Shown here: piece after piece, positions 21,968 through 64,000 of the stretch
Layout: the number at the start of each line of letters is the position of its first letter
Position numbering within the stretch: position 1 is the first letter of the stretch
Made by a program: the position numbers and the translations under genes
Assembly: GCA_965214705.1 (NCBI GenBank)
Contig: CBDCCI010000001.1
Location: 416,001 to 480,000 of the forward strand
Direction: 5' to 3'
Length of the DNA stretch: 64,000 nucleotides
DNA from: Alphaproteobacteria bacterium
Lineage (GTDB): Bacteria; Pseudomonadota; Alphaproteobacteria; UBA828
Notes under the pieces: generated by a model
Databases searched by the model: none
Seen by the model: the letters and a program-made list of their open reading frames with translations, nothing else
What the model was told of the DNA's origin: nothing

Positions 21968-23725
21968 CTCGCGCGCTCACGGCGCTCCTCAAGAAATCCC
22001 CGTCGTAGTCAAGCCAGATTCCGGTATGGGGTCTGCGTACCGCTTACGGAGTAAGTGCCGGGAGCCCCGTTATAGTTACCTTGGCGCGTGATAACCTGCG
22101 TCGCGGCGGTGGGCATCGGGAACCTCTGTACCACGTTGCCATCTGCCGCAGGTCCGGGCGAGTCGAAGTTGCTATCCAGGCTGCTCCGGATGAGTCCCGT
22201 GGTTCCCGCCCCGTCGATGTCGCTCAGGTCCAGGGGAACGGCGGTGGTAATGGCGTTGGTTCCGTACCGGGCATCCGTCAACGGGTCACCGTCAAAGTTA
22301 TAGAACTGAACTCGCGACGGCGTACCGATGTCCGTGTAGACGAACAGGTGCTGACTGAAACCTGGAATATTCCTCACCAAACGTCTCGCAGCCCACCCGG
22401 AGTTGGGCAAAATGGCTTCGTCGGAATCGGAATAGCCCGCAGGATCGGCCACCGTAACGCTGGCCATCGCACCTGCGCCGCGCGTGATGGTGATATCGTT
22501 CTCATCCAGCGTACCAGCGGTGGCGCCGTCGGGAATGTTCGCGGCCCCCTCGATTGCCGTATCCTTGCCGATGATCCGGTCGCGCAGCACCTCGGCCGCG
22601 GCATCCGCCTTGTCCTTTTCCGCCTTCTTGGCCTGGGCGACCTGCATCTTGGCGTCGTCCGAAAGCGAGGCCGTAACCGTGCCTCCCGTGGAAGTCGCGG
22701 AACCGTCCGCCGCAACGGTGACGGTGCAATCGTCGCCGCCCGCGGCGCAAGCGTAGGTCACGCCGTTGTTGGTCGCCGACTCGCCCGCCGGGATCACATG
22801 CGTGGCCGCGCTCGGCTTGTTATCGGCGTCCAGATACATGAGGTCGGCAACCGCGACTGCAACCGAAGGATCGGGCTCGGGCACTGGATCCGGCTGATTC
22901 TCGGGCGCGTCTTCGTTGCCCGGCAGCTTCAGTGCTTCTGCAACGGCCATCTGAGCCGCTGCGAGTTCATTTGCCGTGACATCGCCTGGGTCCATGGCCT
23001 CAAGTTCGGCCAAGTCCGCTCGCGCGTCCGCCAAGGTTTGCTGATTCGCCGCCTCCACCGCAGCTTGCCTTGTCGCCGCAGTCGTGATGGCAACCGTCCC
23101 TCCCGTCGATGACGCAGAGAGCGCGCCCGTGACCGACTCGATGCCGATGGTGAGCGTGCAGTCCGCGTCGCCCTCACAGGTGATGTACGTGCCGGACGCC
23201 AGCATGACCGTCGTTCCGGCCGGAATCATGGTCATTCCCGGATTGAGGCCATGGCCTGCCGGAAGCATAACCGAGTATTCCATCGGCGCCGGCGTCAGCT
23301 CCGCAATCCGCGCATCGACCGCTGCCTGCAACTCGGCAGCCTCAGTGCCAGTAGCGACATCGTCCACCGCATCCTTGGCCGCCTGAGCAGCTTCAGCCGT
23401 CTCGGCTGCCGCGATGGCGTCCCTGGCGCCTTGGATCTGCGCCAGCCTTGCAGTCTCGGCCTGTGCGGCCGCCTGTTCGGCGGCCAGCCTGGCCGCCTCT
23501 GCCTCTGCGGCGGCAGCGGCCTCGGCTTCTGCCTTGGCCTCCGCAGCGGCTTCCGCAGCAGCTTCCGCCGCCTGCCGGTCAGCCTCGCTCTGGCTGATGC
23601 CGCTCGAGCAACCGTATGCGACGGCGGTGAGGGCGACGATCGAGCACGCCGCCAACAAACTGCGAGTCAGCTTCGTCTTCTTCATGTCTGAGGCTCTCCT
23701 CTTGTTTGGGCATGGTGAAGCCGGT

Positions 23726-23851
23726 TATGACAGGTCTACGCACGGGTACGCTGGAGTACGCTGGAGTGCGATAAGACACATTGACACAAAGGGTTGATTG
23801 CCTCATCTACCCCTTGACGCGATGTCAGACCTACGCTCCAATACGCTGGAG
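23726..23851. promoter_or_regulatory. Divergent lipoprotein/integrase control region with TACGC(T) boxes at 10-bp spacing
   Basis: TACGC at 23737, 23747, 23757 and at 23832, 23842, each array preceded by ATG(A/T)CAG. TTGACA at 23781 and TTGACG at 23814 have no convincing -10 box. Confidence 0.55.
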
Positions 23852-24736
23852 TTTGATGTCGGTGGCTTACGAAGTGATTACGGTTGTTACGACGACACAG
23901 ACGCGCCGCGAGGCGAGGGGTGCACGATGCCAAAGCGAGGCGAGCTGACCATCTCGAAGCAATCCGTCGACGGGCTTTCCGCCGAGGGCAAGGAGACGGT
24001 CTTCTGGGACCGGGAGCTCCCGGGCTTCGGCGTGAGGGTCTACCCCTCGGGCTCCAAGACATACGTGGCCCAGAGCCGGGGGCCGAACGGCATCAGACGC
24101 CTGTCATTGGGCCGCCACGGGGAGATCACCGCCGAGCAGGCACGCAAGCATGCCGCCGCCGCCGTCGCCCGCATCAAGCGGGGCGAGGACCCCGAGGCGA
24201 GGCCGCTCGAGCGCGCGCTCACCGTCGCCGACCTGGCCGAGCGCTACATGGAGGCCCATGTCGAGGTGCGCTGCAACGCGCACACCCAGGGGATCTACGC
24301 GGGCTCGCTGAGGAACCACATCCTGCCCGCGTTCGGCGCGATGGCGGTGGCCTCCGTCGGCCGGGAGGAGGTTGCAGCGTTTCACTACCGCCTGCGGGAG
24401 ACGCCCCGTGCCGCGAACCGGGCGCTGATGGTTCTCTCCAAGATGTTCTCGCTGGCGGAGGCTTGGGGAATGGCGCCGGCAAGTGGCAACCCGTGCCGGT
24501 TCGTATTGCGCTACAGGGAGGGCCGTCGCGAGCGCTTTCTGAGCGAGGAGGAGTACCGGCGGGTTGGCCGGGCGCTGTGCGCGCTGGAGGCGGAGGGCCC
24601 GGTGCAGGCGCGGGCTGCGGCGGCGCTGCGGCTGATCATGCTGACGGGATGCCGCGTGGGGGAGGTGCTGACGCTGAGGTGGAGCGACATCGACCGCAAG
24701 TCCGGGGAGTTTCGCCTGCGCGATGCGAAGACGGGA

Positions 24737-26896
24737 CCCAAGTTGGCACTTTTTCCGACCAGCCGAGCCTGTTCGAGCCAGTTTTGCGGCGCTGAACCAC
24801 TAGATGTTGGGGTTGGAGGACACCTGAGACCCACATTTGCCATTCGTGGTCCTGGAAGCCAATTGTGGGGCCAGGACTTTGGAGTTGAGTCGATATCCCT
24901 CTTGCCAGATGCCGCGAACGCCGTGTATGCGAAACAGGCATCGCAGAAACGGCGCCGCCATGTACATCAAGGCAACCAGGACACACACCGACAAGGCCGG
25001 CCAGCCGGTCCGAAGCCATCGCCTCGTGCTCGCCCAGCGCGTCGGCGACAAGGTGCGCCACAGGACGCTGCTCAATCTCGGCACCGACTATCCGGTGCCG
25101 CGCGAGAAGTGGAAGGCCGTCACCGAACTCGCCGAGGCGCTGCTTCACGGCAAGCCGCCGCTGTTCGAGGGCGAGGCGGATGTGCGGGCCGCAGCCGAGG
25201 ACATCGTCGCCAAGCTCAGGGCCAGGGGGTTCCGCGTCGAGGCGATGCAGGAAGAGGCGCGCAAGCCCGACATCGCCACCGTCGACCTCGATACCCTGGA
25301 GCACGAGAACCCGCGCACCGTCGGCTGCGAGCGCCTGTGCCTCAAGGCCCTCGACGCCCTCGGCTTCGCCGAAATCCTCCACGGCCTCGACATCAAGGGC
25401 CGCGACGGGCGCATCGCCAGCGCGCTGATCGTCGCCAGGATGGTCCATCCCGCCAGCGAGCGTGATACCAGCCGCTGGCTCCGCCACGACAGCGCGGCCG
25501 CCGAGCTCCTGGGCCTGGAGGGCGACCGCAAGGCGCTGCGGCGCAAGACGCTCTACCGCATCGGCGACCTGCTCTGGCGCCACCGCGCCGCCATCCAGCG
25601 GGAGCTGTTCAACCGTGAGCGCGCACTGCTCGACCTGCCCGAGACGATCGCCTTCTACGATCTCACCAACGTCCACTACCACGGCCACACGGGCGGCGAG
25701 CTTCCCAGGTTCGGGCGCTCCAAGCAGAAGCGCGACGACTGTCCCCTCATCACGCTGGCGCTGGCGCTCGACGGCGCGGGCTTCCCGCGCAGTTGCGAGA
25801 TCCTGCCGGGCAACGTGAGCGAGCCGGGCACGCTGCACGAGGCGCTGGCGCGGCTCGAGGCGGTGTGCGGCGGCACGGCGGCGAAGCCCACGGTGGTCAT
25901 GGACGCGGGCATCGCCACCGAGAAAAACATCGCGTGGCTGGGCGAGCAGGGCTACGACTGGATCGCGGTCAGCCGCGGTGCCAGGCCTGCGCCGCCCGAG
26001 GGCGGACCCGAGGCCCTGCTGATCACCAGCGCGCGCCACGAGGTGCGGGCCTGGCGGCTTGCCAGCGAGGACGGCGAGGCGCGGCTCTACGTCGTCAGCG
26101 AGGGCAAGAAGAAGGCCGAGAACGCGATCATCGGCCTGAGGCGGAACCGCTTCGAGGCGGCGCTGGAAAGGCTCCACGGCGGCCTCCCGGTCAAGGGCCG
26201 CCTCAAGCGCTACGACAAGGTGCTGGAGAGCATAGGCCGCCTCAAGCAGCGCTTCTCCGCCGTCGCCAGGCACTACGAGATCACGGTCGAGAGGGCGAAA
26301 ACCGGCCCCAATGCCACCGCCGTGCGCTTCAAGCGCAGGCCGCGATACGACGAGGCCGATGAGGGCGCCGGTGCCTATGTGCTGCGCACCAGCCACGTCG
26401 ACTGGGACATCGAGACGGTCCTGCGGACGTACTGGCGGATCACGGATATCGAGGCGACATTCCGGAGCCTGAAATCCGAGCTCGGCCTTCGCCCGATCTG
26501 GCACCAGCTCGACCGGCGCATCGCGGCCCACCTGCTGATCGCCGTGCTGGCCTACCACGCCGTGCATCTGATCCGTACCCGGCTGGCCGCGCGCGGCATC
26601 CACAAGTGCTGGGCGTCGATCCGCGAGAGCATGCGGACCTGGGTGCGGATCACCACGCGCCTGCGCCAGACCGACGGCACCTTGATCGTCAACCGCCAGG
26701 ACACGCGCCCGGCCGCCGAGGTTGCCGCAATCTCCTCGGCGGCGGGCGTGGACCCCGCCATCCACCGCACGAGGACCCGTCTGATGAGCTGACAGAATCT
26801 CACAAAATGTGGGGCCATGTTGGAATCGACCGAGAAAAATATCGCGTTGAATCAAACCAATAGGGAACACAGGCAGCGGAAAAGTGCCAACTTGGG
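24737..26896 (+). mobile_element. IS1634-family element (2160 bp)
   Basis: 16-bp TIR CCCAAGTTGGCACTTT; flanking duplication GGGA. Confidence 0.85.
24960..26792 (+). CDS. IS1634-family transposase
   Basis: MYIK...R.GDKVRHRTLLNLG, FYDLTNVHY.G, GRSKQKRDDCP, VVMDAGI, IEATFRSLKSELGLRPIWHQ. Confidence 0.88.
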   Translation: MYIKATRTHTDKAGQPVRSHRLVLAQRVGDKVRHRTLLNLGTDYPVPREKWKAVTELAEALLHGKPPLFEGEADVRAAAEDIVAKLRARGFRVEAMQEEARKPDIATVDLDTLEHENPRTVGCERLCLKALDALGFAEILHGLDIKGRDGRIASALIVARMVHPASERDTSRWLRHDSAAAELLGLEGDRKALRRKTLYRIGDLLWRHRAAIQRELFNRERALLDLPETIAFYDLTNVHYHGHTGGELPRFGRSKQKRDDCPLITLALALDGAGFPRSCEILPGNVSEPGTLHEALARLEAVCGGTAAKPTVVMDAGIATEKNIAWLGEQGYDWIAVSRGARPAPPEGGPEALLITSARHEVRAWRLASEDGEARLYVVSEGKKKAENAIIGLRRNRFEAALERLHGGLPVKGRLKRYDKVLESIGRLKQRFSAVARHYEITVERAKTGPNATAVRFKRRPRYDEADEGAGAYVLRTSHVDWDIETVLRTYWRITDIEATFRSLKSELGLRPIWHQLDRRIAAHLLIAVLAYHAVHLIRTRLAARGIHKCWASIRESMRTWVRITTRLRQTDGTLIVNRQDTRPAAEVAAISSAAGVDPAIHRTRTRLMS

Positions 26897-27326
26897 GGGA
26901 TCGCGGATGGTGCCGCTGACGCCTACGGCCTCACAGCTGCTGGCGGGGATCGTGCGAGTCAGGCGAAGCCCCTGGGTGTTCCCGGGCAGCCGGCCGGATC
27001 GTCACCTGTTCCAGCTCGCGTCCTTCTGGCATCGTGTGCGGGAGCGTGCCGAGGCCGAAGACGTGCGGATCCACGACTTGCGGCACAGCTACGCCTCGCG
27101 GGCTCTGGCGCTGGGCCTGGCGCTTCCGATGATCGGGCGGCTTCTCGGCCACACGGACATCGGCAGCACCGCCCGCTACGCCCATCTCTCGCGGGACGCG
27201 GAGAAGATCGCGGTCGCCCGTGTGGGCGACAGCATCGAAGCCGACATCCTGCGGGCGGAGACCGCCGCCCATGCCGGCGGGCAGGAATCCTCGCCGGTCA
27301 CGCCGGCTTAGGGAGGGGATTGCGGC

Positions 27327-28484
27327 ATGGCGAGACTGGAGCGGAGGTCGCTGTCGAACCGCGTGGTCGACGGCCTGACCGCCGGGGACAAGGAGATCAT
27401 CTGCTGGGACCGGGACTTGCCGGGGTTCGGCGTTCGGGTCTATCCCAACGGCGCGAAGACGTATCTGGTGCAGGGCCGTGGTCCGCGCGGGTCGAAGCGG
27501 ATCACGATTGGCCGGCACGGCACGATCCCGGCGGACGAGGCGCGGCGCCGGGGGGCCGCGCTCCTGATCCGCATCAAGGCGGGCAAGGAGCCGGGATACG
27601 GGAAGGGGCCGACGGTGGCCGAGCTCGCCGAGAGGTATCTGCGCGAGCACGTCGAGGTCCGCTGCAAGCCGCTCACGGTCAAGGGCTACCGCCAGATGAT
27701 CGTCGGGCACATCCTGCCCGCTCTCGGCAAGCTGCCGATCGCCGCCGTCGGCCGCGAGCACGTTGCCGAGCTTCACTACCGTCTGCGCAAGACGCCGGTT
27801 GCGGCGAACGACACGGTGGGCGCTCTGTCGCGGATGCTGAACCGTGCCGAGGCGTGGGGACTGGTTCCGGCGGGGAGCAATCCCTGCCGCTTCGTGACGC
27901 CGTACCGGACGCGGCGGCCGGAGCGCTTCCTGACGGAGGATGAGTTCGGACGCCTTGGGCACGCCCTGGACGAGCTGGAGGCCGGGGGCCGTCTTCCTGT
28001 TCATGCGGCGGCAGCGCTCCGGCTTCTGATGCTGACGGGGTGCCGCTGCGGCGAGGTGCTGACGCTTCGGTGGGAGGACGTGGCGCTGGAGCGGAACGAG
28101 ATCCGGCTGGCCGACAGCAAGACCGGCCCTCGCATCGTTCCGCTGTCGCCGGCGGCGGCGCGGGTGCTCGCGGCCATTCCCCGCCCCCCTGACAATCCGT
28201 GGGTCATCGCGGGCCGCGAGCCGGGCGCGCGGCAGACGCACATCGCGGACTACTGGTACCGGGTCAGGGAGCGCGCCGGGTTGGACGACGTCAGGCTTCA
28301 CGACCTTCGGCACAGCTTTGCCTCGCGAGCACTGGCGCTGGGCGAGGACCTCACGATGATCGGCAAGCTACTCGGCCACAAGAAAATCCAGACCACCGCA
28401 CGCTATGCCCACCTGGCACGCGACTCGGTGAAGGAATCGGCGGCCCTCGTGGCGGCCAGCATCGGCAAGGACATCCTGCCCTGA
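27327..28484 (+). CDS. Tyrosine integrase int2, copy 1 (intact)
   Basis: WDRDLPGFGVRV arm domain; TGCRCGE, DSKTG, HDLRHS, LGHK, ARYAH. Confidence 0.93.
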   Translation: MARLERRSLSNRVVDGLTAGDKEIICWDRDLPGFGVRVYPNGAKTYLVQGRGPRGSKRITIGRHGTIPADEARRRGAALLIRIKAGKEPGYGKGPTVAELAERYLREHVEVRCKPLTVKGYRQMIVGHILPALGKLPIAAVGREHVAELHYRLRKTPVAANDTVGALSRMLNRAEAWGLVPAGSNPCRFVTPYRTRRPERFLTEDEFGRLGHALDELEAGGRLPVHAAAALRLLMLTGCRCGEVLTLRWEDVALERNEIRLADSKTGPRIVPLSPAAARVLAAIPRPPDNPWVIAGREPGARQTHIADYWYRVRERAGLDDVRLHDLRHSFASRALALGEDLTMIGKLLGHKKIQTTARYAHLARDSVKESAALVAASIGKDILP

Positions 28485-28858: not shown

Positions 28859-29107
28859 CTACAGCAGCTTGAGAACGGCGATCGCCATGCCGGCTACGGC
28901 TACCGCAATCGTGACGATGCGCCACGTCAGGCGCGCCTCGAGGGCGGCAAGGTCGGCTCGCACGTCGGCGATATCGGCTTTGGTCGCCACGCCTTCGGTG
29001 ACGGCATCGCGCACGGTCGCCGTGATCGCCTCGGCCTGACGCTCATTCAGACCGGCTTCGGAGAGCGCCTTGACCGCCTCGTGAGTGTCGAATGTCGCGC
29101 TCGGCAT
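28859..29107 (-). CDS. DUF1640/CCDC90-like membrane-anchored coiled-coil protein, copy 1
   Basis: FDTHEAVKAL.EAG..ERQAEAI...VATKADI, C-terminal hydrophobic helix. Confidence 0.75.
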   Translation of the reverse strand: MPSATFDTHEAVKALSEAGLNERQAEAITATVRDAVTEGVATKADIADVRADLAALEARLTWRIVTIAVAVAGMAIAVLKLL

Positions 29108-29536
29108 GATGCGACGATAGCCCAGGGCGGCGCCGAACGCCATTGGACGGCCTCATCGCCCCGCAGGTCCCCGCTGAAAGCCTGCGCCCTCTCGCCTGGT
29201 CTTTTCCGCCGCGCCCTCGGGCTCGCCGTAATTTCCGTCATCACTGCGTCGGCGAGACGACCGGCAAGACGCCCCCAGCTCGCATTGGCGCGGATGGGCG
29301 AGGTGCCGAACATCGTACGAGCCAAGCCGCGGGGACCGGGCGACTCCGCCACTCACGACCGGCCCCGCCGCACCTTGGCCTCGTCGCGCAACTCGGCGAA
29401 AGACGGTGCCGGCTCTTGCGGGAACGGGATGGTTGGGGGCTCGGCCTCCCGGCTGGGCAGCGCCCTTGCGGGCCGGTCCTGAAGCAGCGGTCGGCGGGAG
29501 AGTGCGGGCGTATCGAGTTTCGTGCTGCGTTGCAGA

Positions 29537-31739
29537 CAGGGCAAATTTGTCCAAGCGGCTGGTAGGCAGTTGAGTTCTGGCCACGGGTTGTGCGGATCGG
29601 CTTTGTTGCGGGGTTTGCGGCGGGGTCTGGCCGAGCATCCGGTTCGGTCAGAGGGTTCTGGCATTACCGTGTGGGCGGTGCGGGCGGTGCCGTCGCGATT
29701 TGGCGGTGCCCCGACATGATGGATCGCGCCACCGGCGTGGTCGGGAGCGAGGGCAGGTACGATCTTTGCGCCCGGCTTGCCGGGCGCCGGGGTTCAGGCC
29801 GGCGCGGCGCGCTTTGCGGTCCTCGGCTGGGTGTTCCCGGTCATTTTCAGGAAGTCGAGGACGGCGCGGACGTTGCGGGCGAGCCTGCGCACGGTCGAGG
29901 CGACCTCGAGCCCCCGGCCCTTGATCAGGCCGATGGCGAAGCGCCGCAGGCGGGTCATGTTCTCGGGGCCGAAGCCTGTGCGTATGCGGCTGCGGTCCTC
30001 GTCCCAGGTCCAGTCGAGGCAGTGGTGCGAGCTGTTCTCGATGCACCAGTGGCCGCGGTTGAGGGCGAGCAGGCTCTGCGCGTTGGCCGTGCCGGGCGTG
30101 TGGCTGGAGATCCCGTAGGCGGTCTCGGTGCCGGTCTCGCCGGTCTTCTTGTCCTGGCGGGAGCGCTCGATCATGAAGACCTGGCCGACGCCCGGGAAGT
30201 CGAGAAAGCCGTTCAACTCCGTGCTCGTCCAGATTGCCCGCTGCTCGATGCGTCCGTGCGACAGCGCGGCCTCCTCCTCGAAGTCGGGCTCACGCTCCGG
30301 CGCCTCTTCGAAGAGCAGCGTCACATCGTCCCGCATGGTCTTCTGGTTCCCTTTCACGATGAACATGAAGTGCGCGCCCCGGTCGAGCAGGTAGCGGGCG
30401 AACTTGCGCTGGGTTAGCAGCGCGTCCGTCGTGACCGTCTTGCCCGCGATGTTCGGGATCAGGTCCACCAGCGCCGTCACGGTGCCGATCTCGTTGGTGC
30501 GCTTTGTCTCCTCGTCGGCCCCGACTTTCAGGAGAAGTTTTTTTGGGCGAGCGTGGCCTTGGTCTCGTGCCCGACCGCGCTCATGACATGAGCCTGGGTC
30601 CCGTCCTCGTCGATGGCCCCCCTCAGGGTCTTGCCGTCGATGGCAAGCGCCGCGTCGCCTGAGCCGTGGGCCTCCTGCCACTTGCGCAACGCCTCGTCCA
30701 ACTGGTCCGGGTCCACCCGGATCACCACATTGCGGATGGTCGACATCGAAGGCGGCCGGCGCACCCCGTCGCGCAGCCGCACGCCGAAGCGGGCCAGCGC
30801 CTTCTCGCCGAGATCGTCGACCCACTCGGACATGGCCTTCCAGCCTCGCATGCCGCAGAGCGTCGCGCCACTCGCAAGCGCGAGCACGCTGGGCAGCGAA
30901 TGCCGCCGTCCCTTGCGCGTGCGGGGGTCGTCGATGTCCTTGAAGTAGGCGTAGAGCGACTCTTGCTGAGCGGCGCTGATCATGGTTCTCGGAACTCCTT
31001 TCTTCCACAACTCCCGATCCAGCCCGGCAGCGGACAGCCGGCGGCAGGCGTCGGGAACCAGGGGGCGCAGCAGCACAAGCTTCGGCGTCGAGCCGGCGAC
31101 ATAGCCCGAGCGGTGGCGCCGGAAGCCGCGGGTCTGGCCGACCGCCAGCCATCCAGCCGCCCGGTAGACCGTGCCCCGGAACCTCGCCGCGTCCACGAAT
31201 GTTTCCAGCATCAGCACGGGGTGGCCGAAGCGGGCCGGCCAGTCGCGCGCCAAGCGCCGCGCGCAAAGCCCCAGCACCCGCGAGCCGAGGTTCGGAACAC
31301 CCCGTCCCGGCAGGATCAGGAAGCGCGCGTTGTTCGCGATCAGATGCAGCCGCCCGTGCTGCGTGCGGAAGTCCCAGCCGATCCACTCGTCCCGCGCCCG
31401 GCACTTGCGCGCCGCAGCCGAAAACACGGCCAGCGCCAGCCACTCGCCGCGCCGATGGGCGACGTACCACGCCGTCGCCCCCACCTTCGCAGACGCACCC
31501 AGGTAGTGATGCCCCTCCATCAGCGCGCGGAACCGGGCCTCGTCCTGCGGCCGGACAGCAGCGACATCGACCTCGGAAAGATCCACCGTAGAAACCGTCC
31601 CCCTGCTCGAAGCCGATCCGCAGCAGAACACCGCGAATCCAGTCGCCTCAATCCATAGCAGGGTTGGCGCGCGCTGACCAGACCCAAGGTCAACTCGTAG
31701 CGCAGAACTCAAAAATCAGGCTTGGACAAATTCGCCCTG
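29537..31739 (-). mobile_element. ISAs1-family element with fused DUF4338 domain (2203 bp)
   Basis: TIR CAGGGCAAATTTGTCCAAGC / GCTTGGACAAATTCGCCCTG; 10-bp TSD GCGTTGCAGA; the empty site is visible in cassette copy 2. Confidence 0.9.
29794..31712 (-). CDS. DUF4338-ISAs1 transposase fusion, joined by a -1 frameshift at the A7 run (30538-30544)
   Basis: The first frame has HHYLG, NNARFLILP, ETFVD..RFRGTVYRAAGW, then DPRTRKGRRH and AIDGKTLRG. The second frame has NEIG, TTDALLTQ, VKGNQ, HGRIE.R, RGHWCIENSSH..LD..WDED. Confidence 0.8.
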
Positions 31740-42103: not shown

Positions 42104-42196
42104 GGCGAGACGCAGGCGGGTCCGCAGATTTTTGTCGAGGTCCCGCCTGCACTTTTCCCTGGTCACGCATTGGCGAATCGGATTAAGGGATCGGCC

Positions 42197-48125: not shown

Positions 48126-48143
48126 GCAGCGCGCGCCTCGACG

Positions 48144-51160: not shown

Positions 51161-51256
51161 CGCAGCAGGCCTCGGACGGAACTCAACAGAGAGAGAATGA
51201 GAAAGAAGAAGAGGGTGGCACATCCCGCCACCCTCTTCCGGAAGTCCGGACCTAAA

Positions 51257-51287: not shown

Positions 51288-51298
51288 CGCCAATCCGG

Positions 51299-53872: not shown

Positions 53873-54235
53873 GGCCTCAAGGCTCTCCTTTTGCGAAGAG
53901 GCCTCGGCGAGGCCTCGCTGGGTTAAACATTGCAGCCGTCAACGTACATGACGACTCGGGCAGTGTCCATAGTCGGGAATTCCACCACACCATTTCCCGC
54001 TTGTCCACCTCGGGGTGGCCCCTGCCCAAGCGGGCCGTCCCAACGGCCCCTCACGGCGGTGAACCATGGAACGCTCCCAAACCCGTCCGGGGCCTCCGCC
54101 CCCCGTCGCTGCGGCCCTCCTGCACATCCTCGCGACATCCTCCATGCCGTCCGGCGCGCCGTCCCTAACCACGCCATATTTCAAGCGCCTTTGCAAGCGC
54201 CAAATCTGCAACGCAGCACGAAACTCGATACGCCC

Positions 54236-55737: not shown

Positions 55738-56139
55738 GCCCGCACTCTCCCGCCGACCGCTGCTTCAGGACCGGCCCGCAAGGGCGCTGCCCAGCCGGGA
55801 GGCCGAGCCCCCAACCATCCCGTTCCCGCAAGAGCCGGCACCGTCTTTCGCCGAGTTGCGCGACGAGGCCAAGGTGCGGCGGGGCCGGTCGTGAGTGGCG
55901 GAGTCGCCCGGTCCCCGCGGCTTGGCTCGTACGATGTTCGGCACCTCGCCCATCCGCGCCAATGCGAGCTGGGGGCGTCTTGCCGGTCGTCTCGCCGACG
56001 CAGTGATGACGGAAATTACGGCGAGCCCGAGGGCGCGGCGGAAAAGACCAGGCGAGAGGGCGCAGGCTTTCAGCGGGGACCTGCGGGGCGATGAGGCCGT
56101 CCAATGGCGTTCGGCGCCGCCCTGGGCTATCGTCGCATC

Positions 56140-56388
56140 ATGCCGAGCGCGACATTCGACACTCACGAGGCGGTCAAGGCGCTCTCCGAAGCCGGTCTGA
56201 ATGAGCGTCAGGCCGAGGCGATCACGGCGACCGTGCGCGATGCCGTCACCGAAGGCGTGGCGACCAAAGCCGATATCGCCGACGTGCGAGCCGACCTTGC
56301 CGCCCTCGAGGCGCGCCTGACGTGGCGCATCGTCACGATTGCGGTAGCCGTAGCCGGCATGGCGATCGCCGTTCTCAAGCTGCTGTAG
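56140..56388 (+). CDS. DUF1640/CCDC90-like protein, copy 2
   Basis: Identical to 28859-29107. Confidence 0.75.
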   Translation: MPSATFDTHEAVKALSEAGLNERQAEAITATVRDAVTEGVATKADIADVRADLAALEARLTWRIVTIAVAVAGMAIAVLKLL

Positions 56389-56762: not shown

Positions 56763-57920
56763 TCAGGGCAGGATGTCCTTGCCGATGCTGGCCGCCACGA
56801 GGGCCGCCGATTCCTTCACCGAGTCGCGTGCCAGGTGGGCATAGCGTGCGGTGGTCTGGATTTTCTTGTGGCCGAGTAGCTTGCCGATCATCGTGAGGTC
56901 CTCGCCCAGCGCCAGTGCTCGCGAGGCAAAGCTGTGCCGAAGGTCGTGAAGCCTGACGTCGTCCAACCCGGCGCGCTCCCTGACCCGGTACCAGTAGTCC
57001 GCGATGTGCGTCTGCCGCGCGCCCGGCTCGCGGCCCGCGATGACCCACGGATTGTCAGGGGGGCGGGGAATGGCCGCGAGCACCCGCGCCGCCGCCGGCG
57101 ACAGCGGAACGATGCGAGGGCCGGTCTTGCTGTCGGCCAGCCGGATCTCGTTCCGCTCCAGCGCCACGTCCTCCCACCGAAGCGTCAGCACCTCGCCGCA
57201 GCGGCACCCCGTCAGCATCAGAAGCCGGAGCGCTGCCGCCGCATGAACAGGAAGACGGCCCCCGGCCTCCAGCTCGTCCAGGGCGTGCCCAAGGCGTCCG
57301 AACTCATCCTCCGTCAGGAAGCGCTCCGGCCGCCGCGTCCGGTACGGCGTCACGAAGCGGCAGGGATTGCTCCCCGCCGGAACCAGTCCCCACGCCTCGG
57401 CACGGTTCAGCATCCGCGACAGAGCGCCCACCGTGTCGTTCGCCGCAACCGGCGTCTTGCGCAGACGGTAGTGAAGCTCGGCAACGTGCTCGCGGCCGAC
57501 GGCGGCGATCGGCAGCTTGCCGAGAGCGGGCAGGATGTGCCCGACGATCATCTGGCGGTAGCCCTTGACCGTGAGCGGCTTGCAGCGGACCTCGACGTGC
57601 TCGCGCAGATACCTCTCGGCGAGCTCGGCCACCGTCGGCCCCTTCCCGTATCCCGGCTCCTTGCCCGCCTTGATGCGGATCAGGAGCGCGGCCCCCCGGC
57701 GCCGCGCCTCGTCCGCCGGGATCGTGCCGTGCCGGCCAATCGTGATCCGCTTCGACCCGCGCGGACCACGGCCCTGCACCAGATACGTCTTCGCGCCGTT
57801 GGGATAGACCCGAACGCCGAACCCCGGCAAGTCCCGGTCCCAGCAGATGATCTCCTTGTCCCCGGCGGTCAGGCCGTCGACCACGCGGTTCGACAGCGAC
57901 CTCCGCTCCAGTCTCGCCAT
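56763..57920 (-). CDS. Tyrosine integrase int2, copy 2
   Basis: Identical protein to 27327-28484. Confidence 0.93.
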   Translation of the reverse strand: MARLERRSLSNRVVDGLTAGDKEIICWDRDLPGFGVRVYPNGAKTYLVQGRGPRGSKRITIGRHGTIPADEARRRGAALLIRIKAGKEPGYGKGPTVAELAERYLREHVEVRCKPLTVKGYRQMIVGHILPALGKLPIAAVGREHVAELHYRLRKTPVAANDTVGALSRMLNRAEAWGLVPAGSNPCRFVTPYRTRRPERFLTEDEFGRLGHALDELEAGGRLPVHAAAALRLLMLTGCRCGEVLTLRWEDVALERNEIRLADSKTGPRIVPLSPAAARVLAAIPRPPDNPWVIAGREPGARQTHIADYWYRVRERAGLDDVRLHDLRHSFASRALALGEDLTMIGKLLGHKKIQTTARYAHLARDSVKESAALVAASIGKDILP

Positions 57921-57935
57921 GCCGCAATCCCCTCC

Positions 57936-59156: not shown

Positions 59157-59197
59157 CGTGGTAAGCCTTCGGTTGTCTGGTGATGGGTGCGATGGAT

Positions 59198-60079
59198 TCA
59201 ACGATTGAGCGTTCGTCTCCAGTCACGTCTGAGGGGCCTGAGCCAGATGTCCTTCCTGGGCTTGGCCCGCTCCATATGTGTGTCGTAGCGCCCGCGCCCC
59301 TGGGTGATGCCGACATGGATCCAGCCCGAGGCCTTGTAGACGGCGCCGGTGTAGCGCGGGGTCTCGACGAAGGTCTCGATCAGCACGGGCGTGGTGTTGT
59401 AGCGCTCGGTCCAATCCTCAGGCAGGCGGCGGCGGACGATGGCAAGGATGTGCGAGCCGAGGTTGGGGACTTCGATCCAGGGCAGGATGAGGAAGCGCGG
59501 GTTGTCGACCACCAGGGGGAGGTTCTTCTCGCGCAACTCGGGCGTCCATCCGATGAATGTGTCGCGCGGGGCGAGCTTCCACGCGGCGGTGGAGAAGCCG
59601 AGCATGGCGAGCGGCCAGCCGTTTCGGTCGTGGACGGCGTAGCGCATCTGGGCGCCGACCAGGGTCTTGTAGCCGAGGTAGTGGTAGCGGGCGACGAACT
59701 CGTTCCAGAGCCTGCCCTCGCGGGTATTGCGCACGACGATGCGGAAGTCGAGCGGTCGGACCTCGTCCAGGCTCGTCGGGGCCGGGAACAGCGGCGGCTC
59801 GGTGTCCGGTCCGAAGACGATGGGCTTCGGCCCGCCGGTGCGCCGCTTCGGCGGCGGCAGGACGATCACGCCGTCGCGGTGCATGGCGAGCATGGCGACC
59901 TTCGCCATCATGTCCTTGAGCCCGCCGTCGGGCTTGTACCAGCCGATGCGCCGGCAGAACTCGCGTGCCAGGGCGGCACGGGACGTCTGTGGATCGGCGG
60001 CGATCAGGGCGCGCAGCAGCGCCATCTCTTCAACGGTGAAGTCGCGGCCGTAGTAGCGGCACTCGATCCGGCCGGTCAT
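59198..60079 (-). CDS. DUF4338 (DruA-like) protein
   Basis: MTGRIECRYYGRDF..., same motifs as 32191-33177; ATGA overlap with the transposase stop. Confidence 0.85.
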   Translation of the reverse strand: MTGRIECRYYGRDFTVEEMALLRALIAADPQTSRAALAREFCRRIGWYKPDGGLKDMMAKVAMLAMHRDGVIVLPPPKRRTGGPKPIVFGPDTEPPLFPAPTSLDEVRPLDFRIVVRNTREGRLWNEFVARYHYLGYKTLVGAQMRYAVHDRNGWPLAMLGFSTAAWKLAPRDTFIGWTPELREKNLPLVVDNPRFLILPWIEVPNLGSHILAIVRRRLPEDWTERYNTTPVLIETFVETPRYTGAVYKASGWIHVGITQGRGRYDTHMERAKPRKDIWLRPLRRDWRRTLNR

Positions 60080-62484
60080 CCCGGTGCCGTGAACTTGCGC
60101 TTGCGTGCCTCGCTCATCGACCACGGCAGCCAGGGCGACAGGTCGTCCGGCGGCTTGCCGCCGTTCTTTGCGCAGGCGTCCAGCCATGCCTTCAGCCAGC
60201 GCAGCACGTCGATGCCGTTCATCGAGAGCGTGCCCACGACCGAGTACATGATCGCAATGAACGTCGCGCCGTCCTCGCTGTTGGAACCGAAGCTCAACTT
60301 CCTGCCGATGGACGGCCCGCGGAGCACGCGCTCGGCCGTGTTGTTGTCCATGGGGACCAGGGGGTGGTCGACGAAGACGCACAACCCCTCGCGATGCCTG
60401 AGCAGCGAGCGCAGGGCCTTGGCCTTGCGCCCCTTCTTCGGCAGGCCGGCCAACTCCGCCCCGGCGTCCGCGAACAGACCCTCGACCGCCTTCCTCAACG
60501 CGTCCTGCGCCGCGTCGAACGCCGGTGTCCGGCGTTCGAGGGAGGCGTCGTAATGCTTCAGCCTCTCGTCGTTCAGGTTGTAGATCTCCCCGATCCGCTC
60601 GATCCATCTCTCGCACCAGCGGGTGAGCCGCACATGGCCGGCGGCGCAGTCGATAAAGGTCCGCCTCTGGTGCGCCCAACAGAAGCAGAGGATCACCTTG
60701 CCGTCGAGTTCGCGCGCGAGCTTCCTGTAGGCGCTGAACCGGTCGCAGACCACGAGCACGGTGCAGGCGGTATCGCCGAACAGGGTTTTGGCCACCTCGG
60801 CGCTGCGCGAGGGGTCGATAAGGAAGTAGACCGTGTCCCGGCTGACCGAAGTCCACAGCCAGGCGCGGCTCGAGCGGCCGTTCCGGCGGAACTCCTGCAC
60901 GCGCCAGCCGGTCTCGTCGGCATGGCGCAGCGCCGCCTTGTTCTGGTGCGCGAGGATCGCCTCGTGGATCGGCTCGAACAGCGGCACGAAGCGCTTCTGG
61001 CTGTCGGCCAGCGTGCCCGGCGAGACCGGCAGGCCCTGGTCGGCATACCACGCCGCGACCCGGCTCAGCGGGCGGAAGCACGCACAGTGCTCGAACAGGA
61101 ACCGTGCCCAGAAGCTGGTCCCGTAGAGCGTTCCCGGGAACAGCCGCGCCGCCGGCGGCGCGATCGCCTCCAGCGGCGACGACGGGCACTCGCAGCCCCG
61201 GCGCCAGCGCGGGCGGACGATCCTGCGGATATGGGCCTTGACCTCGATCTCGATGACGTTCGTCGAGTGCTCGCCGTTGGCGACGTAGGGCTTGCCGCAA
61301 CAGGAGCAGACGCGCGCATCCTTCGGCGGGTTGCGCCGCTCCTCCTTCTCCCGCAGACCGGCTCGCTGGGTGCGGCCGTGGCCGGGCGCGCCGGGCTGCT
61401 GGCCGCGCGTGCGCCCCGTGCCCGCCTTCTTCTGCTTCTCGCTCCTGCTGCCGAACAGCGCCTTCGACAGAACGGAGCGGGTCGAGCGGAGCTTCTCGAC
61501 CCGGGATTCCAGCGTCTCGACGCGGGAGGTCAGCGTCGCCGTCTCGGCCTCCAGCGCCGCCCCCTTGGCCCTCAACTCCCGCACCTCGGTGCGCAGTCGG
61601 GCGTTGCGTTGGCGCAGCGATTCGACAAGGCCCTTCGCCCGCGCGGTCGCTGCACGGAGCTGAGCGATCCGCCTGCGCAGCGGGGCCAGCATGGCCCGCC
61701 GTTCCCGCGAAGCCTCCACGCAGAACGCGTTCCGCCGGTCGATCTCCCGGTTCAGCCCGTCGACCTCGTCGCGATGCCAGGCATCGAGCCGAAGCTCGCG
61801 CTCGTGGGAGTTGCACAGCGCCGAGTGAAGACCGGCGTTCTCGCCGGCCAGCCGCTTGCACCGTCTCTCCGAGGCCCTCGCCGCCTTCTGCAACGCGACA
61901 TTCTCCGCGCGCAGCGCCTTGTTCGTATCGGTCAGGCTCGCCGACGCCGACGCCTGCTCGCTCAGAGCCGCGACCTCGCCCTTCAGCCGTGCCACCTCCT
62001 TGTTCAGCCGCACCGCTTCCTTGTTCAGCCGCACCGCTTCCTTGCGCGAGCCGCGCAGTTCCGCACGCAGTGCCTCGTTCGTGTCTTTCTGCCCCTGCGC
62101 CTGCTCCTGCGAGCGCTCCAGCGCCCTGTGCAGCCCCCGAATCTCCTGGGATCGACGGCCGGATGTGTCGTTCCGGGCTTTCGATGCCGGGGCCTGGTGC
62201 GCTCCACGGGTATTCCTCGGCACCGGACCGCTCGCGCCCTTGCCAGCCTCTGCCTTGCGCAGAGAAGTACGGAGCCGGCGAACATCGTTGAGCAGCTCCT
62301 GCACGCGCGCTTCGGCCGCGTCCGCCCGCGCCCGCTCCGTCTCCGCGCAGGCTCGCGCCTGCTCGTACAGAGATTGCCCGTCGCGCGGCTCCGACACCAC
62401 GGCCGCCGTCGAGGGCAGCCAGACCCCGTCGTCGCCTTCGATCGACGCCAGCGCCGCCCCGGAATCCTCGTCGCGAATCGTCAC
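60076..62484 (-). CDS. IS66-family transposase with long N-terminal coiled coil
   Basis: LFGSRSEK, CSCCG, HADETGW, CWAHQRR, PMDNNTAER, WLPW. Confidence 0.9.
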   Translation of the reverse strand: MTIRDEDSGAALASIEGDDGVWLPSTAAVVSEPRDGQSLYEQARACAETERARADAAEARVQELLNDVRRLRTSLRKAEAGKGASGPVPRNTRGAHQAPASKARNDTSGRRSQEIRGLHRALERSQEQAQGQKDTNEALRAELRGSRKEAVRLNKEAVRLNKEVARLKGEVAALSEQASASASLTDTNKALRAENVALQKAARASERRCKRLAGENAGLHSALCNSHERELRLDAWHRDEVDGLNREIDRRNAFCVEASRERRAMLAPLRRRIAQLRAATARAKGLVESLRQRNARLRTEVRELRAKGAALEAETATLTSRVETLESRVEKLRSTRSVLSKALFGSRSEKQKKAGTGRTRGQQPGAPGHGRTQRAGLREKEERRNPPKDARVCSCCGKPYVANGEHSTNVIEIEVKAHIRRIVRPRWRRGCECPSSPLEAIAPPAARLFPGTLYGTSFWARFLFEHCACFRPLSRVAAWYADQGLPVSPGTLADSQKRFVPLFEPIHEAILAHQNKAALRHADETGWRVQEFRRNGRSSRAWLWTSVSRDTVYFLIDPSRSAEVAKTLFGDTACTVLVVCDRFSAYRKLARELDGKVILCFCWAHQRRTFIDCAAGHVRLTRWCERWIERIGEIYNLNDERLKHYDASLERRTPAFDAAQDALRKAVEGLFADAGAELAGLPKKGRKAKALRSLLRHREGLCVFVDHPLVPMDNNTAERVLRGPSIGRKLSFGSNSEDGATFIAIMYSVVGTLSMNGIDVLRWLKAWLDACAKNGGKPPDDLSPWLPWSMSEARKRKFTAPG

Positions 62485-62976
62485 GAGCGCGACGATAGCC
62501 GACGGTCGAGAGAGTTACCAGTAGGCACCCCCGCGCTACACCGGCGCCGTCTACAAGGCCTCGGGCTGGATCCATGTCGGGATCACCCAGGGGCGCGGGC
62601 GCTACGACACACATATGGAGCGGGCCAAGCCCAGGAAGGACATCTGGCTCAGGCCCCTCAGACGTGACTGGAGACGAACGCTCAATCGTTGAATCCATCG
62701 CACCCATCACCAGACAACCGAAGGCTTACGCATCGTGCACCCCTCGCCTCGCGGCGCGTCTGTGTCGTCGTAACAACCGTAATCACTTCGTAAGCCACCG
62801 ACATCAAACTCCAGCGTATTGGAGCGTAGGTCTGACATCGCGTCAAGGGGTAGATGAGGCAATCAACCCTTTGTGTCAATGTGTCTTATCGCACTCCAGC
62901 GTACTCCAGCGTACCCGTGCGTAGACCTGTCATAACCGGCTTCACCATTCCCAAACAAGAGGAGAGCCTTGAGGTC

Positions 62977-64000
62977 ATGAAAAAGTCGAAACTGACTCGC
63001 AGTTTGCTGGCGGCGTGCTCGATCGTCGCCCTCACGGCCGTCATGTACGGCTGCTCGAGCTCCGGGGAGGACCGGGCCAAAGCGGATCGGGACGAACTGC
63101 AAGCGCAGATCGATGCCCTGCAAGAAGCATTCGGGGACGAGGACATAACGCCGGAAGCCATCATGGCGCTCATTGCCGAGAGGGATGATGCCACGGCCGA
63201 TGTGACCCGCCTCGAAGGTGAGCTGGCCACGGCCACGGGCGAGAGGGACGGCCTCCAGACCATGTTGGACGCGGCCACGGCCGAAGTGACCCGCCTCGAA
63301 GGTGAACTGGCCACGGCCACGGACGAGAGGGACGGCCTCCAGACCATGTTGGACGCGGCCACGGCCGAAGTGACCCGCCTCGAAGGTGAACTGGCGACCG
63401 CTCAGACTGCGCTGGATGACGCCAATACGGCCCTTGCCGCAGCGCTCAAGCGTGCCGAGGACGCGGAGGCCGAGCTCACCCAGCTCGAGGAGGACGCGGC
63501 CGAGGCTCTGGCAGCCTTGGCACTCGCGGATCGGATTGCCAGAGGTGGGGCGATTGAGACGGCGATCTCAACCAACAGGCTTGGGGATTATGCGACTTCC
63601 ACTGCCAGGACCATCGACACGCTCCCCGATAGCAGCGGTGTTGACGGATTGTCGGTGGAGCGCGACGTGGCCGGCACGATAACGGTCGACGTGAACGGCG
63701 ATGACGACGACGACTACGCTGGCGGCGAGACCACGGCCGGTGACGACGACTGGAACAGTGTCAGGATGACGAGGGAAGACGCTGGCGGTGAGTCCACTCA
63801 CACCCTAGTAATCTACACGGACATCGAGGAGCCAGCGGACAAGCCGTTCACGGATCTATATGACCGGAATGCTCGCGATGACATCCTCAATGATGCGGAT
63901 CGGGTCAAGCTGGCTCAGGCCGCGGACTTCCCCTCGGGGGCAAGCCAGTCGGTGACGTACGGCGGCGACACCGGCAACCCGGAGTCGTTCGCCGGCACCT
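62977..64000 (+). CDS. Surface lipoprotein C (partial, runs off the window; absent from the ORF track)
   Basis: AGGAGAG RBS; MKKSKLTRSLLAACSIVALTAVMYG-CSSS; frame open to 64000; the distal part is near-identical to lipoprotein B. Confidence 0.88.
   Translation, partial: MKKSKLTRSLLAACSIVALTAVMYGCSSSGEDRAKADRDELQAQIDALQEAFGDEDITPEAIMALIAERDDATADVTRLEGELATATGERDGLQTMLDAATAEVTRLEGELATATDERDGLQTMLDAATAEVTRLEGELATAQTALDDANTALAAALKRAEDAEAELTQLEEDAAEALAALALADRIARGGAIETAISTNRLGDYATSTARTIDTLPDSSGVDGLSVERDVAGTITVDVNGDDDDDYAGGETTAGDDDWNSVRMTREDAGGESTHTLVIYTDIEEPADKPFTDLYDRNARDDILNDADRVKLAQAADFPSGASQSVTYGGDTGNPESFAGT
63190..63395 (+). repeat. 84-bp (28-aa) coding tandem repeat, about 2.5 copies
   Basis: ATA(D/E)VTRLEGELATAT(G/D)ERDGLQTMLDA repeated. 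Confidence 0.85.

What the first reader, a model, noticed from the sequence alone, without database searches (positions are those of the whole stretch)
23688..63055. Candidate dual-integrase invertible switch that phase-varies Slam-exported surface lipoproteins
Seen: (1) a cassette [end P1 - int1 - int2 - DUF1640-like - end P2] occurs twice and is 4007 bp in both copies after subtracting ISs and TSDs. (2) All four ends stop at the inverted core AGGAGAGCCT, which overlaps the lipoprotein RBS. (3) In copy 2 it separates two divergent lipoprotein genes whose RBS and signal-peptide DNA form an inverted repeat of about 100 bp. (4) Relative to the slam-linked gene the cassette is flipped: A is preceded by P1, B by P2, and C by P1. 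(5) The bases just outside the core match within each locus (CTCAG at both ends of copy 1, CTTGAGG at both ends of copy 2). Known: tyrosine recombinases invert promoter segments (FimB/FimE, Mycoplasma vsp/vsa lipoprotein loci). Inference: inversion at the RBS core swaps which upstream region drives which lipoprotein. I know of no described system pairing phage-type arm-domain integrases with T11SS cargo.
Basis: partly seen in the sequence, partly recalled or inferred. Interest (0 to 1): 0.9.

Follow-up and report, generated by a model that had tools for sequence, protein, structure and literature searches.

The report
Integrase-pair cassette at lipoprotein start sites
A 4-kb DNA cassette carrying two integrase genes is bounded by inverted copies of a 10-base sequence that also serves as the ribosome-binding site of variable surface lipoprotein genes; related genomes show DNA is cut and rejoined exactly there, but flipping as an on/off switch is not yet shown.

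Summary
All five observations hold. Both cassette copies measure 4007 bp core to core once the ISs are removed, and they differ at 3 bases. The core AGGAGAGCCT occurs exactly four times in the window, always at a cassette end.

The structure is conserved across the genus.
- Five cassettes in this genome and more than 20 in relatives have the same exact inverted cores.
- Each carries two intact arm-domain tyrosine recombinases.
- One end (P1) always abuts a lipoprotein ATG.
- The other end (P2) abuts a conserved non-coding segment I call X, or in 7 loci a second, divergent lipoprotein.

The lipoproteins are hypervariable, sit next to slam genes, and have a TbpB/HpuA/fHbp-like C-terminal fold.

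Near-identical cassette ends are joined to unrelated flanks, with the switch exactly at the core. So the core is a real site-specific crossover point.

Inversion itself is unproven.
- Only assembled contigs could be laid, and none showed a flipped junction.
- 25 of 26 typed X junctions sit at P2. One, in G013, sits at P1, as a flip would produce.
- Both int1 copies in the window are IS-damaged.

Verdict: a real and probably undescribed recombination module. The switch reading is partly supported.

The parts
14510..15955 (-). slam (SlipAM) gene of the A operon, separated from A by IS insertions
   Evidence: Pfam PF04575, 89.6 bits
22009..23685 (-). lipoprotein A (558 aa, lipobox YGC); ATG lies 5 nt after the core
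23691..23700 (-). P1 core of copy 1 (AGGAGAGCCT on the - strand), which is the RBS of A
23701..23926 (+). P1 region of copy 1. It holds 10-bp-phased TACGC repeats (23737-23765), a second repeat cluster, and a weak conserved TTGACG-N17-TCCAAT motif facing int1
23927..27311 (+). int1 of copy 1, split by a DDE-transposase IS (about 24737-26900)
27327..28484 (+). int2 of copy 1 (385 aa, intact)
   Evidence: identical to the copy-2 int2
28859..29143 (-). DUF1640-like 94-aa ORF, copy 1
29527..31739 (.). IS in the P2 region of copy 1 (2213 bp with its target duplication; boundaries approximate)
32038..32056 (+). P2 palindromic hairpin GAGGCCTC-N3-GAGGCCTC, 8 nt before the core
32065..32074 (+). P2 core of copy 1
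32075..32253 (+). X: conserved non-coding partner of the P2 core, cut here by an IS66-like element (32254-35680)
49766..51223 (-). slam of the B operon
   Evidence: Pfam PF04575, 75.4 bits
51299..53872 (-). lipoprotein B (857 aa). The C-terminal 260 aa fold like TbpB C-lobe, HpuA and fHbp
53880..53889 (-). P2 core of copy 2, which is the RBS of B
53898..53916 (-). P2 hairpin of copy 2
54231..55736 (.). IS5-like insertion in the P2 region of copy 2 (1506 bp). It is absent from some public contigs
56104..56388 (+). DUF1640-like ORF, copy 2
56763..57920 (-). int2 of copy 2
   Evidence: Pfam PF00589 and PF13356
57936..59156 (-). int1 of copy 2 (406 aa from the ATG). It is cut off from its upstream region by an IS 4 nt before the ATG
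59161..62723 (.). IS66-like element with about 200-nt terminal inverted repeats, inserted in P1 of copy 2
62724..62959 (-). P1 region of copy 2, with TACGC repeats near 62895-62923
62960..62969 (+). P1 core of copy 2, which is the RBS of C
62977..64000 (+). lipoprotein C, which runs off the window; slam follows at C2 482479-483909

Best explanation
The cassette is a conserved site-specific recombination module. Its two heterobivalent (arm-domain) tyrosine recombinases, Int1 and Int2, act on an invariant 10-bp crossover core, AGGAGAGCCT. The core lies in inverted orientation at both cassette ends and doubles as the Shine-Dalgarno sequence of hypervariable, Slam-dependent (TbpB-like) surface lipoprotein genes.

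Because the two cores are inverted, the reaction within one cassette is inversion. Inversion would exchange which end abuts the lipoprotein-slam operon(s). P1 carries phased TACGC arm-type repeats and the int1 upstream region. P2 carries a GAGGCCTC palindrome/hairpin.

Between loci or sister copies, the same reaction exchanges cassettes, lipoprotein modules and X flanks.

Shown: the anatomy, its conservation, the nature of the cargo, and that breakpoints fall exactly at the core.

Inferred: that Int1 and Int2 are the enzymes, that inversion happens within a cassette, and that it changes lipoprotein expression.
For: Core placement.
- The core is exact at all 10 ends of the 5 cassettes in this genome and at 18 P1 and 13 P2 ends tabulated from this genome plus 10 relatives.
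- It is also exact at X junctions, where no ORF follows. RBS function alone therefore cannot explain its invariance.

Linkage to the lipoprotein family.
- The family's signal-peptide DNA was found 45 times in 14 of 21 genomes of the genus.
- 41 of these have the exact core upstream by a strict pattern, and 3 more do by inspection.
- In this genome, 5 of 5 such gene starts follow a cassette core.

Breakpoints at the core.
- G005, G020_a and G017_a have identical P2 inner 45 nt. They are joined to a lipoprotein, to X, and to a mirror copy of the cassette's own P1 flank.
- G020 has one X flank (1848 nt, 99.5% identical) joined to two different cassettes.
- Metagenome contigs L108 and L079 share the P2 inner sequence but have different X.
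- L3 and L4 share the P1 inner sequence but have different lipoprotein 5'UTRs. C and the L3 lipoprotein share their 5' ends but sit next to different cassettes.
- Copies 1 and 2 differ at 3 of 4007 bases but have unrelated flanks.

Both reciprocal products of a P1 x P2 exchange exist.
- P2-lipoprotein occurs in 7 loci.
- X-P1 occurs once, in G013.

Site structure.
- A sister cassette class has 23-29-bp terminal inverted repeats that include the core.
- Phased TACG repeats occur inside P1 and, in the same polarity relative to the core, outside P2 within X. In the window such clusters occur only at the two P1 ends.

Enzymes and cargo.
- The Int1 alignment to XerD shows the catalytic RHR-H-Y residues. 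The matching Int2 motifs were read by eye from the sequence printed.
- All 4 non-mirror lipoprotein ORFs at P2 ends are intact, at 657-1240 aa.
- No empty site (X next to a lipoprotein ATG) was found in 21 genomes.
Against: - No read-level evidence of inversion. All four runs laid were assembled contigs, which drop rare variants, and no strand-change joint between the cores was listed.
- 25 of 26 typed X junctions have X at P2. Single-lipoprotein loci are essentially always seen in one orientation.
- The single X-P1 case is a degenerate cassette. Its int1 is IS-split, its int2 is truncated, and its far end is lost.
- In the cassette class found in the window, the inverted repeat is only the 10-bp core, and P1 lacks the GAGGCCTC element.
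- In the window, int1 is IS-split in copy 1 and separated from its upstream region in copy 2.
- No promoter was detected by the consensus scan at either end.
- One family member in G002 has an ordinary upstream region with no core.
Confidence: 0.5

Rival explanations
1. The cassette is a selfish mobile unit: a tyrosine-recombinase element with terminal inverted repeats. It spreads by site-specific cassette exchange or insertion at lipoprotein start sites. It supplies the RBS and so becomes indispensable, but it does not act as a programmed switch.
For: - Near-identical cassettes sit at two loci with different flanks.
- There are several cassettes per genome.
- The genome also holds at least 15 copies of a compact 2.4-kb element that carries only an int-int pair, with unrelated flanks, so the recombinase-pair family is mobile.
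- A sister cassette class has 23-29-bp terminal inverted repeats.
- One orientation dominates at X junctions.
Against: - The flanks are never arbitrary. In the 18 P1 and 13 P2 ends tabulated, P1 always abuts a lipoprotein of one family, and P2 always abuts X or such a lipoprotein.
- No empty site was found in 21 genomes.
- Inverted cores cannot be excised as a circle by a simple tyrosine-recombinase reaction.
- The divergent two-lipoprotein arrangement has persisted long enough for the flanking genes to diverge (G013, G005).
Confidence: 0.25
2. The unit is a larger mobile island running from X through the cassette and lipoprotein to slam, with the integrase pair as its integration module. The inner cores are incidental.
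For: - Whole modules are repeated on the 707-kb replicon at 97-99% identity: B-slam, C-slam, L3 and L4.
- X is conserved for 165-250 bp beyond the P2 core.
Against: - Homology between loci breaks exactly at the cores rather than at outer island ends.
- The B-slam arm ends 15 nt after the slam stop, with no att-like repeat there.
- This model gives no reason for an exact inverted core at a junction that has no gene.
Confidence: 0.1
3. The architecture is static. AGGAGAGCCT is simply the conserved RBS/5'UTR of the gene family, the P2 copy is a relic of an old inverted duplication, and the rearrangements arose by homologous recombination.
For: - The first 95-130 nt of all family members are highly conserved, which could support homologous exchange.
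- One orientation dominates.
Against: - Sequence differences begin at the first base after the core, inside the region that would have to carry the homology.
- A 10-bp identity is too short for homologous recombination (general knowledge).
- The core is exact at about 26 X junctions that have no ORF, while the neighbouring bases diverge.
Confidence: 0.1

Closest known systems
fim-type invertible switches (FimB/FimE, E. coli)
   Same: - Two tandem paralogous tyrosine recombinases.
- Short (9-10 bp) inverted repeats with non-identical flanking binding sequences.
- Control of a surface structure.
(All recalled knowledge.)
   Different: - The Fim recombinases are small, lack arm-binding domains and lie outside a 314-bp element.
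- Here the recombinases are 385-406 aa P4-type integrases with PF13356 arm domains.
- They lie inside a 4-10 kb element, and the repeat is the RBS itself.
Mycoplasma vsa/vpma/vsp lipoprotein inversion systems (HvsR, Xer1)
   Same: A tyrosine recombinase acts at a short site in the conserved 5' end of variable surface lipoprotein genes. The genes have conserved 5' ends and variable bodies. (From the abstract of PMC2268961 as listed, plus recalled knowledge.)
   Different: - Those systems have one expression site and many silent genes, each with its own site, and a single recombinase without arm sites.
- Here every gene has its own cassette and no orphan silent copies were found.
- Here there are two recombinases and arm-type repeats.
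Lambda/P4-type integrase att systems (attL/attR versus attP/attB)
   Same: - Heterobivalent integrases.
- P1 reads arm-core-gene and P2 reads hairpin-core-arm(X), which resembles attR and attL.
   Different: The two sites are inverted on one molecule, so the reaction is inversion rather than excision. No Xis-like gene was identified, and there are two integrases.
Slam/T11SS cargo loci (TbpB, LbpB, HpuA, fHbp)
   Same: - Adjacent SlipAM gene.
- Lipobox.
- C-terminal handle/barrel fold that matches TbpB, HpuA, fHbp and NHBA.
   Different: No recombinase-controlled Slam cargo turned up in my literature searches. The host is an uncultured alphaproteobacterial lineage.
RIT and BIM tyrosine-recombinase modules
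   Same: Clustered tyrosine recombinase genes repeated within proteobacterial genomes.
   Different: RIT elements have three recombinases. BIM elements have one recombinase plus an unrelated protein (passages of PMC3414803). Neither is described there with RBS-core inverted repeats.

Membership tests
Tyrosine recombinase (PF00589) with arm-binding domain (PF13356) | Catalytic domain with the R..HxxR..H/W..Y residues | tested here: met
   PF00589 scores 84.8 and 89.4 bits. The Int1 alignment to XerD 1a0p shows R, HxxR, H and Y conserved. The Int2 motifs were read by eye.
Tyrosine recombinase (PF00589) with arm-binding domain (PF13356) | N-terminal arm-type DNA-binding domain | tested here: met
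   PF13356 scores 49.8 and 32.4 bits against a cut-off of 27.
Programmed invertible element (inverton) | Inverted repeats flanking the segment, with a recombinase encoded nearby | tested here: met
   (10-bp repeats here; 23-29 bp in the sister class).
Programmed invertible element (inverton) | Both orientations present within one population | tested here: inconclusive
   Only Logan contigs could be laid and no strand-change joint was listed. Across assemblies, 25 of 26 X junctions are in one state.
Programmed invertible element (inverton) | A promoter or other expression signal whose linkage to the target gene changes on inversion | tested here: inconclusive
   The consensus scan found 0 promoter-like sites at P1 or P2. 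The RBS stays with both ends in either state.
Slam (T11SS)-dependent surface lipoprotein | Adjacent SlipAM outer-membrane gene | tested here: met
   PF04575 at 49766-51223 and at 14510-15955.
Slam (T11SS)-dependent surface lipoprotein | Lipoprotein signal with lipobox, and a C-terminal TbpB-like barrel/handle domain | tested here: met
   Lipobox seen. Model pLDDT is 79.7. All top PDB matches are known Slam cargo, at E 2e-5 to 1e-3 with modest TM scores of 0.3-0.5.
Slam (T11SS)-dependent surface lipoprotein | Slam-dependent surface exposure | not testable with these tools
   Needs experiment.
Mycoplasma-type multi-gene lipoprotein shuffling | A single expression site plus silent genes, each carrying the recombination site | tested here: not met
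   In this genome every core next to a lipoprotein gene is a cassette end, and there are no orphan copies.
Integron | IntI-type integrase, and cassettes with attC sites | tested here: not met
   The integron integrase models score 44-53 bits against a cut-off of 265. No attC-like second site lies after slam.
Tyrosine-recombinase transposon (Tn916/Tn554-like) | Insertion into varied targets, with empty sites present in relatives | tested here: not met
   The flanks are always a lipoprotein or X. The empty-site pattern gave 0 hits in 21 genomes (a pattern-limited test).
DUF1640 / CCDC90-like (PF07798) | Score above the Pfam gathering threshold | tested here: not met
   31.4 bits against 33.5, covering only profile positions 1-36 of 175.

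The most novel reading that the evidence does not exclude
The module is a directional 'integrative inversion' switch built from phage-type att logic. In the state seen almost everywhere, P1 reads arm-core-lipoprotein (attR-like) and P2 reads hairpin-core-arm X (attL-like). Inversion would create an arm-core-arm site (attP-like, as in the G013 X-P1 junction) and a hairpin-core-lipoprotein site (attB-like). That would place the lipoprotein-slam operon downstream of, and co-directional with, int1-int2, behind the hairpin. The two integrases, or an unidentified directionality factor, would set the direction. The result would be regulated rather than stochastic variation of T11SS surface antigens. 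At two-lipoprotein loci it would toggle between two antigens.
Probability: 0.2. Interest if true: 0.85.

Novelty: new variant of a known kind. Interest (0 to 1): 0.62.

Why it matters
If the cores are active recombination sites, this would be, as far as my searches found, the first case of Slam/T11SS surface lipoproteins placed under DNA-rearrangement control. It would also be an unusual use of heterobivalent phage-type integrases, as a pair, for inversion or cassette exchange rather than integration.

The crossover core coincides with the Shine-Dalgarno sequence. Every recombination product therefore keeps a translatable gene, which is a neat design principle.

The system is compact: two genes plus sites of roughly 30-250 bp. 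It could be tested in E. coli as a reporter. It may also explain how an uncultured, IS-rich alphaproteobacterial lineage diversifies its surface.

Tried and rejected
Read evidence. The run search returned only Logan contigs. Four runs were laid. The joints listed there (54230>55737 and 59152>62730) are IS-less forms. The 59152>62730 joint matches the state of copy 1. The 54230>55737 joint lies on a contig that carries the B flank and neither IS, so it is an IS-less form of copy 2 rather than copy 1. The loose end at 53892 matches the L3 P1 junction. None of these bears on inversion.

Promoter and terminator scans at P1 and P2 found no promoter-like site, and one terminator-like site in 53700-56900, below the shuffle mean. 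Rfam found 0 families in 20000-64000.

A k-mer search for inverted repeats around the 55%-identity int pairs gave only noise and was dropped.

I first treated the GAGGCCTC hairpin as diagnostic of P2. Searches showed that some P1 ends (G008 beta, G010 C58) carry it too. I therefore retyped ends by the neighbouring int gene or by longer homology.

The apparent 'flipped' loci L134 (G020 C4) and G008 beta were rejected. L134 has a P2-type inner sequence next to a different int pair. Beta is a normal P1 end that carries a full hairpin.

The pattern ended in B, which excludes A at that position. It therefore misses about a quarter of sites, and its counts (11 X, 9 lipoprotein) are lower bounds that mix some P1 ends.

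I looked for orthologous two-lipoprotein loci with the cassette in opposite orientations in different species and found none. Only the first 95-130 nt and slam align between flanks.

BIM and RIT were considered and rejected. NCBIfam gave only generic Xer or integron hits, far below their cut-offs.

Literature searches found no description of this system. I saw search listings and abstracts only, plus passages of PMC3414803. Supplements were not consulted.

Full report
WHAT IS IN THE WINDOW

The window is C2:416001-480000 of a 7.9-Mb, 67% GC genome in three contigs.

Two copies of one cassette lie in inverted orientation, at 23691-32074 and 53880-62969. Each copy is interrupted by two different ISs. 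With the ISs and their target duplications removed, both copies are 4007 bp from core to core and differ at 3 bases.

The cassette holds three genes.
- int1 is 406 aa from its ATG.
- int2 is 385 aa.
- A 94-aa ORF on the opposite strand scores just below the DUF1640 threshold.

Both integrases carry an Arm-DNA-bind_3 domain and a Phage_integrase domain. The Int1 alignment to XerD shows the catalytic residues, and Int2 carries the same motifs by eye.

The sequence AGGAGAGCCT occurs four times in the window, and all four are the inverted cassette ends. The int1-proximal end, P1, abuts lipoprotein A in copy 1 and lipoprotein C in copy 2. The ATG follows 5-7 nt after the core. The int2-distal end, P2, abuts lipoprotein B in copy 2. 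In copy 1 it abuts a non-coding stretch that I call X.

B is followed by a slam gene. The slam of A lies at 14510-15955, beyond two ISs. C also has a slam, just outside the window. The argument that the cassette is 'flipped relative to the slam-linked gene' does not hold, because locus 2 has a lipoprotein-slam module on each side.

THE CARGO

Every lipoprotein I examined at a cassette end has a lipobox and an intact ORF of 268-1369 aa, with two exceptions. One contig ends inside the gene. C in this genome appears truncated at its C-terminus, outside the window.

Between paralogues and between species, three zones can be told apart.
- The first 95-130 nt are 86-99% identical.
- The next 1.7-2.3 kb cannot be aligned.
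- The slam region is 80-87% identical.

The C-terminal 260 aa of B were modelled from a 15-sequence alignment (pLDDT 79.7). The best PDB matches were TbpB C-lobe, NHBA, HpuA and fHbp, at E 2e-5 to 1e-3 with modest TM-scores. These are the classical Slam cargo proteins. Pfam and NCBIfam did not name the proteins.

A GENUS-WIDE ARCHITECTURE

This genome has five such cassettes. All 10 of their ends carry the exact core, out of 30 exact copies genome-wide.

A DNA search with the int1-int2 region found matches in all 20 other genomes of the genus and in some genomes outside it. I fetched flanks for 14 loci and tabulated 18 P1 ends and 13 P2 ends.
- Every end carries the exact core.
- All 18 P1 ends run into a lipoprotein ATG.
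- 5 P2 ends run into a lipoprotein and 8 run into X.

The conserved signal-peptide DNA of the family occurs 45 times in 14 of 21 genomes.
- 41 occurrences have the exact core 18-34 nt upstream by a strict pattern.
- 3 more have it by inspection.
- 1, in G002, has an ordinary upstream region with no core.

A more distant genome, G035 from another family, keeps the exact core at P2 and has a one-mismatch core before a lipoprotein at P1. Tool-printed record titles call the relatives alphaproteobacterial or Rhodospirillales MAGs.

THE CORE IS A CROSSOVER POINT

Several comparisons show near-identical sequence on one side of the core and unrelated sequence on the other, with the change at the first base after the core.
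- Three cassettes with identical P2 inner 45 nt are joined to a lipoprotein (G005), to X (G020_a) and to a mirror copy of the cassette's own P1 flank (G017_a).
- G020_b and G017_b show the same pattern.
- In G020, one X flank (1848 nt, 99.5% identical) is joined to two different cassettes.
- Metagenome contigs repeat this pattern.
- L3 and L4 share the P1 inner sequence but have different 5'UTRs. C and the L3 lipoprotein share 5' ends but sit beside cassettes that are only about 83% identical.
- Copies 1 and 2 are near-identical inside the cores and unrelated outside them.

Ten identical bases are too few for homologous recombination. The core is also invariant at junctions with no ORF, while its neighbours diverge. 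This fits the identity requirement of a tyrosine-recombinase overlap region, which is established knowledge for the family. An exchange between like sites of sister copies would explain why two loci carry the same cassette.

SITE STRUCTURE

P2 always carries a GAGGCCTC-N3-5-GAGGCCTC palindrome 8-10 nt inside the core.

In a sister cassette class (about 67% DNA identity), the two ends share longer terminal repeats.
- In one cassette (G004, L130) both ends share a perfect 23-bp terminal inverted repeat.
- P1 and P2 ends of other cassettes in the class share 29 nt.

In the window's own class, only the 10-bp core is shared.

P1 carries 10-bp-phased TACGC repeats at about -40 to -80 and about -170 to -213 from the core. 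In the whole window such clusters exist only at the two P1 ends.

X is conserved for 165-250 bp. It holds the same type of repeat at +143 to +163 (6 loci) or +198 (2 loci), in the same polarity relative to the core. It also has a block that is homologous to part of the P1 region.

Relative to the core, P1 is therefore arm-core-gene and P2 is hairpin-core-arm. That resembles attR and attL placed in inverted orientation. This reading is an inference.

IS IT A SWITCH?

For:
- Inverted sites on one molecule can only invert.
- Both kinds of P1 x P2 product exist. A lipoprotein sits at P2 in 7 loci: this genome, G005, G009, G013, G014, G017 and G020. X sits at P1 once, in G013.
- The four non-mirror lipoprotein ORFs at P2 ends are intact.
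- In G017 the two flanks are mirror images, 99.98% identical over 5966 nt up to the contig start. This is either a recent exchange at the cores or an assembly walk through a flipping segment.

Against:
- 25 of 26 typed X junctions (15 of 16 in genomes, 10 of 10 in metagenome contigs) have X at P2.
- The single exception is a decayed cassette whose far end is lost.
- The only sequencing data I could lay were contigs, and they show no flipped junction.
- No promoters could be assigned.
- In the window, int1 is split in copy 1 and separated from its upstream region in copy 2.

The data fit a switch that is strongly biased or regulated. They also fit a module that recombines only rarely, on evolutionary time scales.

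RIVALS

- A mobile-cassette reading is favoured by the genome's many compact 2.4-kb int-int-only elements. It is weakened by the invariant flanks and by the absence of empty sites in 21 genomes.
- A larger-island reading is contradicted by breakpoints that fall at the cores.
- A static-RBS reading is contradicted by the exact cores at X junctions, where no gene follows.

NOVELTY

My searches found no description of Slam cargo under recombinase control or of this integrase-pair architecture (listings and abstracts only). It works most like the fim and Mycoplasma lipoprotein inversion systems, but it is built from phage-type arm-binding integrases. I rate it a new variant of a known kind.

Noticed in passing
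G000 genome-wide, e.g. C1:433481-435851, C1:4139696-4142067, C3:480174-482545: There are at least 15 copies (74-98% identical) of a compact 2.4-kb element that holds only an int1-int2 pair (35-43% aa identity to the cassette integrases). Their flanks are unrelated. The left end lies near ACACC..GCGCACCTGCGGTGC and the right end lies at the int2 stop. It looks like a minimal two-recombinase mobile element, and I found no description of it.
   Followed up: partly
window 32254-35680 and 59161-62723: Two related IS66-family elements have unusually long transposases (731 and 802 aa, with a coiled-coil N-terminus) and 180-200-nt terminal inverted repeats. The same type of element is inserted in X at two loci, L1 and L3.
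   Followed up: partly
window 43989-45566 (-): A group II intron reverse transcriptase/maturase ORF (RVT_1 plus GIIM). It sits beside a second IS66 copy at 42170-43912.
   Followed up: no
window 52608-53588 and 63183-63434: Lipoprotein B contains 21/42-nt periodic repeats (heptad coiled coil). Lipoprotein C contains 84-nt tandem repeats. These repeat arrays could add length variation to the proteins.
   Followed up: no
window 18574-19293 (-): A second TbpB-like C-terminal domain (36% identity to B residues 634-856) lies between A and its slam. This suggests a two-lipoprotein operon that ISs have broken up.
   Followed up: no
L020 (G017 contig C8, 1-5966 versus 11154-17119): The flanks of the cassette are mirror images, 99.98% identical, running to the contig start. 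This is either a real inverted duplication or an assembly artefact of an inverting segment.
   Followed up: partly
C2:480494-480990 (just outside the window): Lipoprotein C appears to be frameshifted or truncated near its C-terminus, and a 1.5-kb insertion lies between it and its slam.
   Followed up: no
L136 (G002 C5, about 24293-24420): One member of the lipoprotein family has an ordinary upstream region (GGAAGGA RBS and a TTGACA-like motif) with no core and no cassette.
   Followed up: partly
window 39421-39876 and 47196-48125: An SSB gene and a YspA/SLOG-domain gene lie between the two cassette copies, among ORFs with no family match. The segment looks plasmid- or island-like.
   Followed up: no
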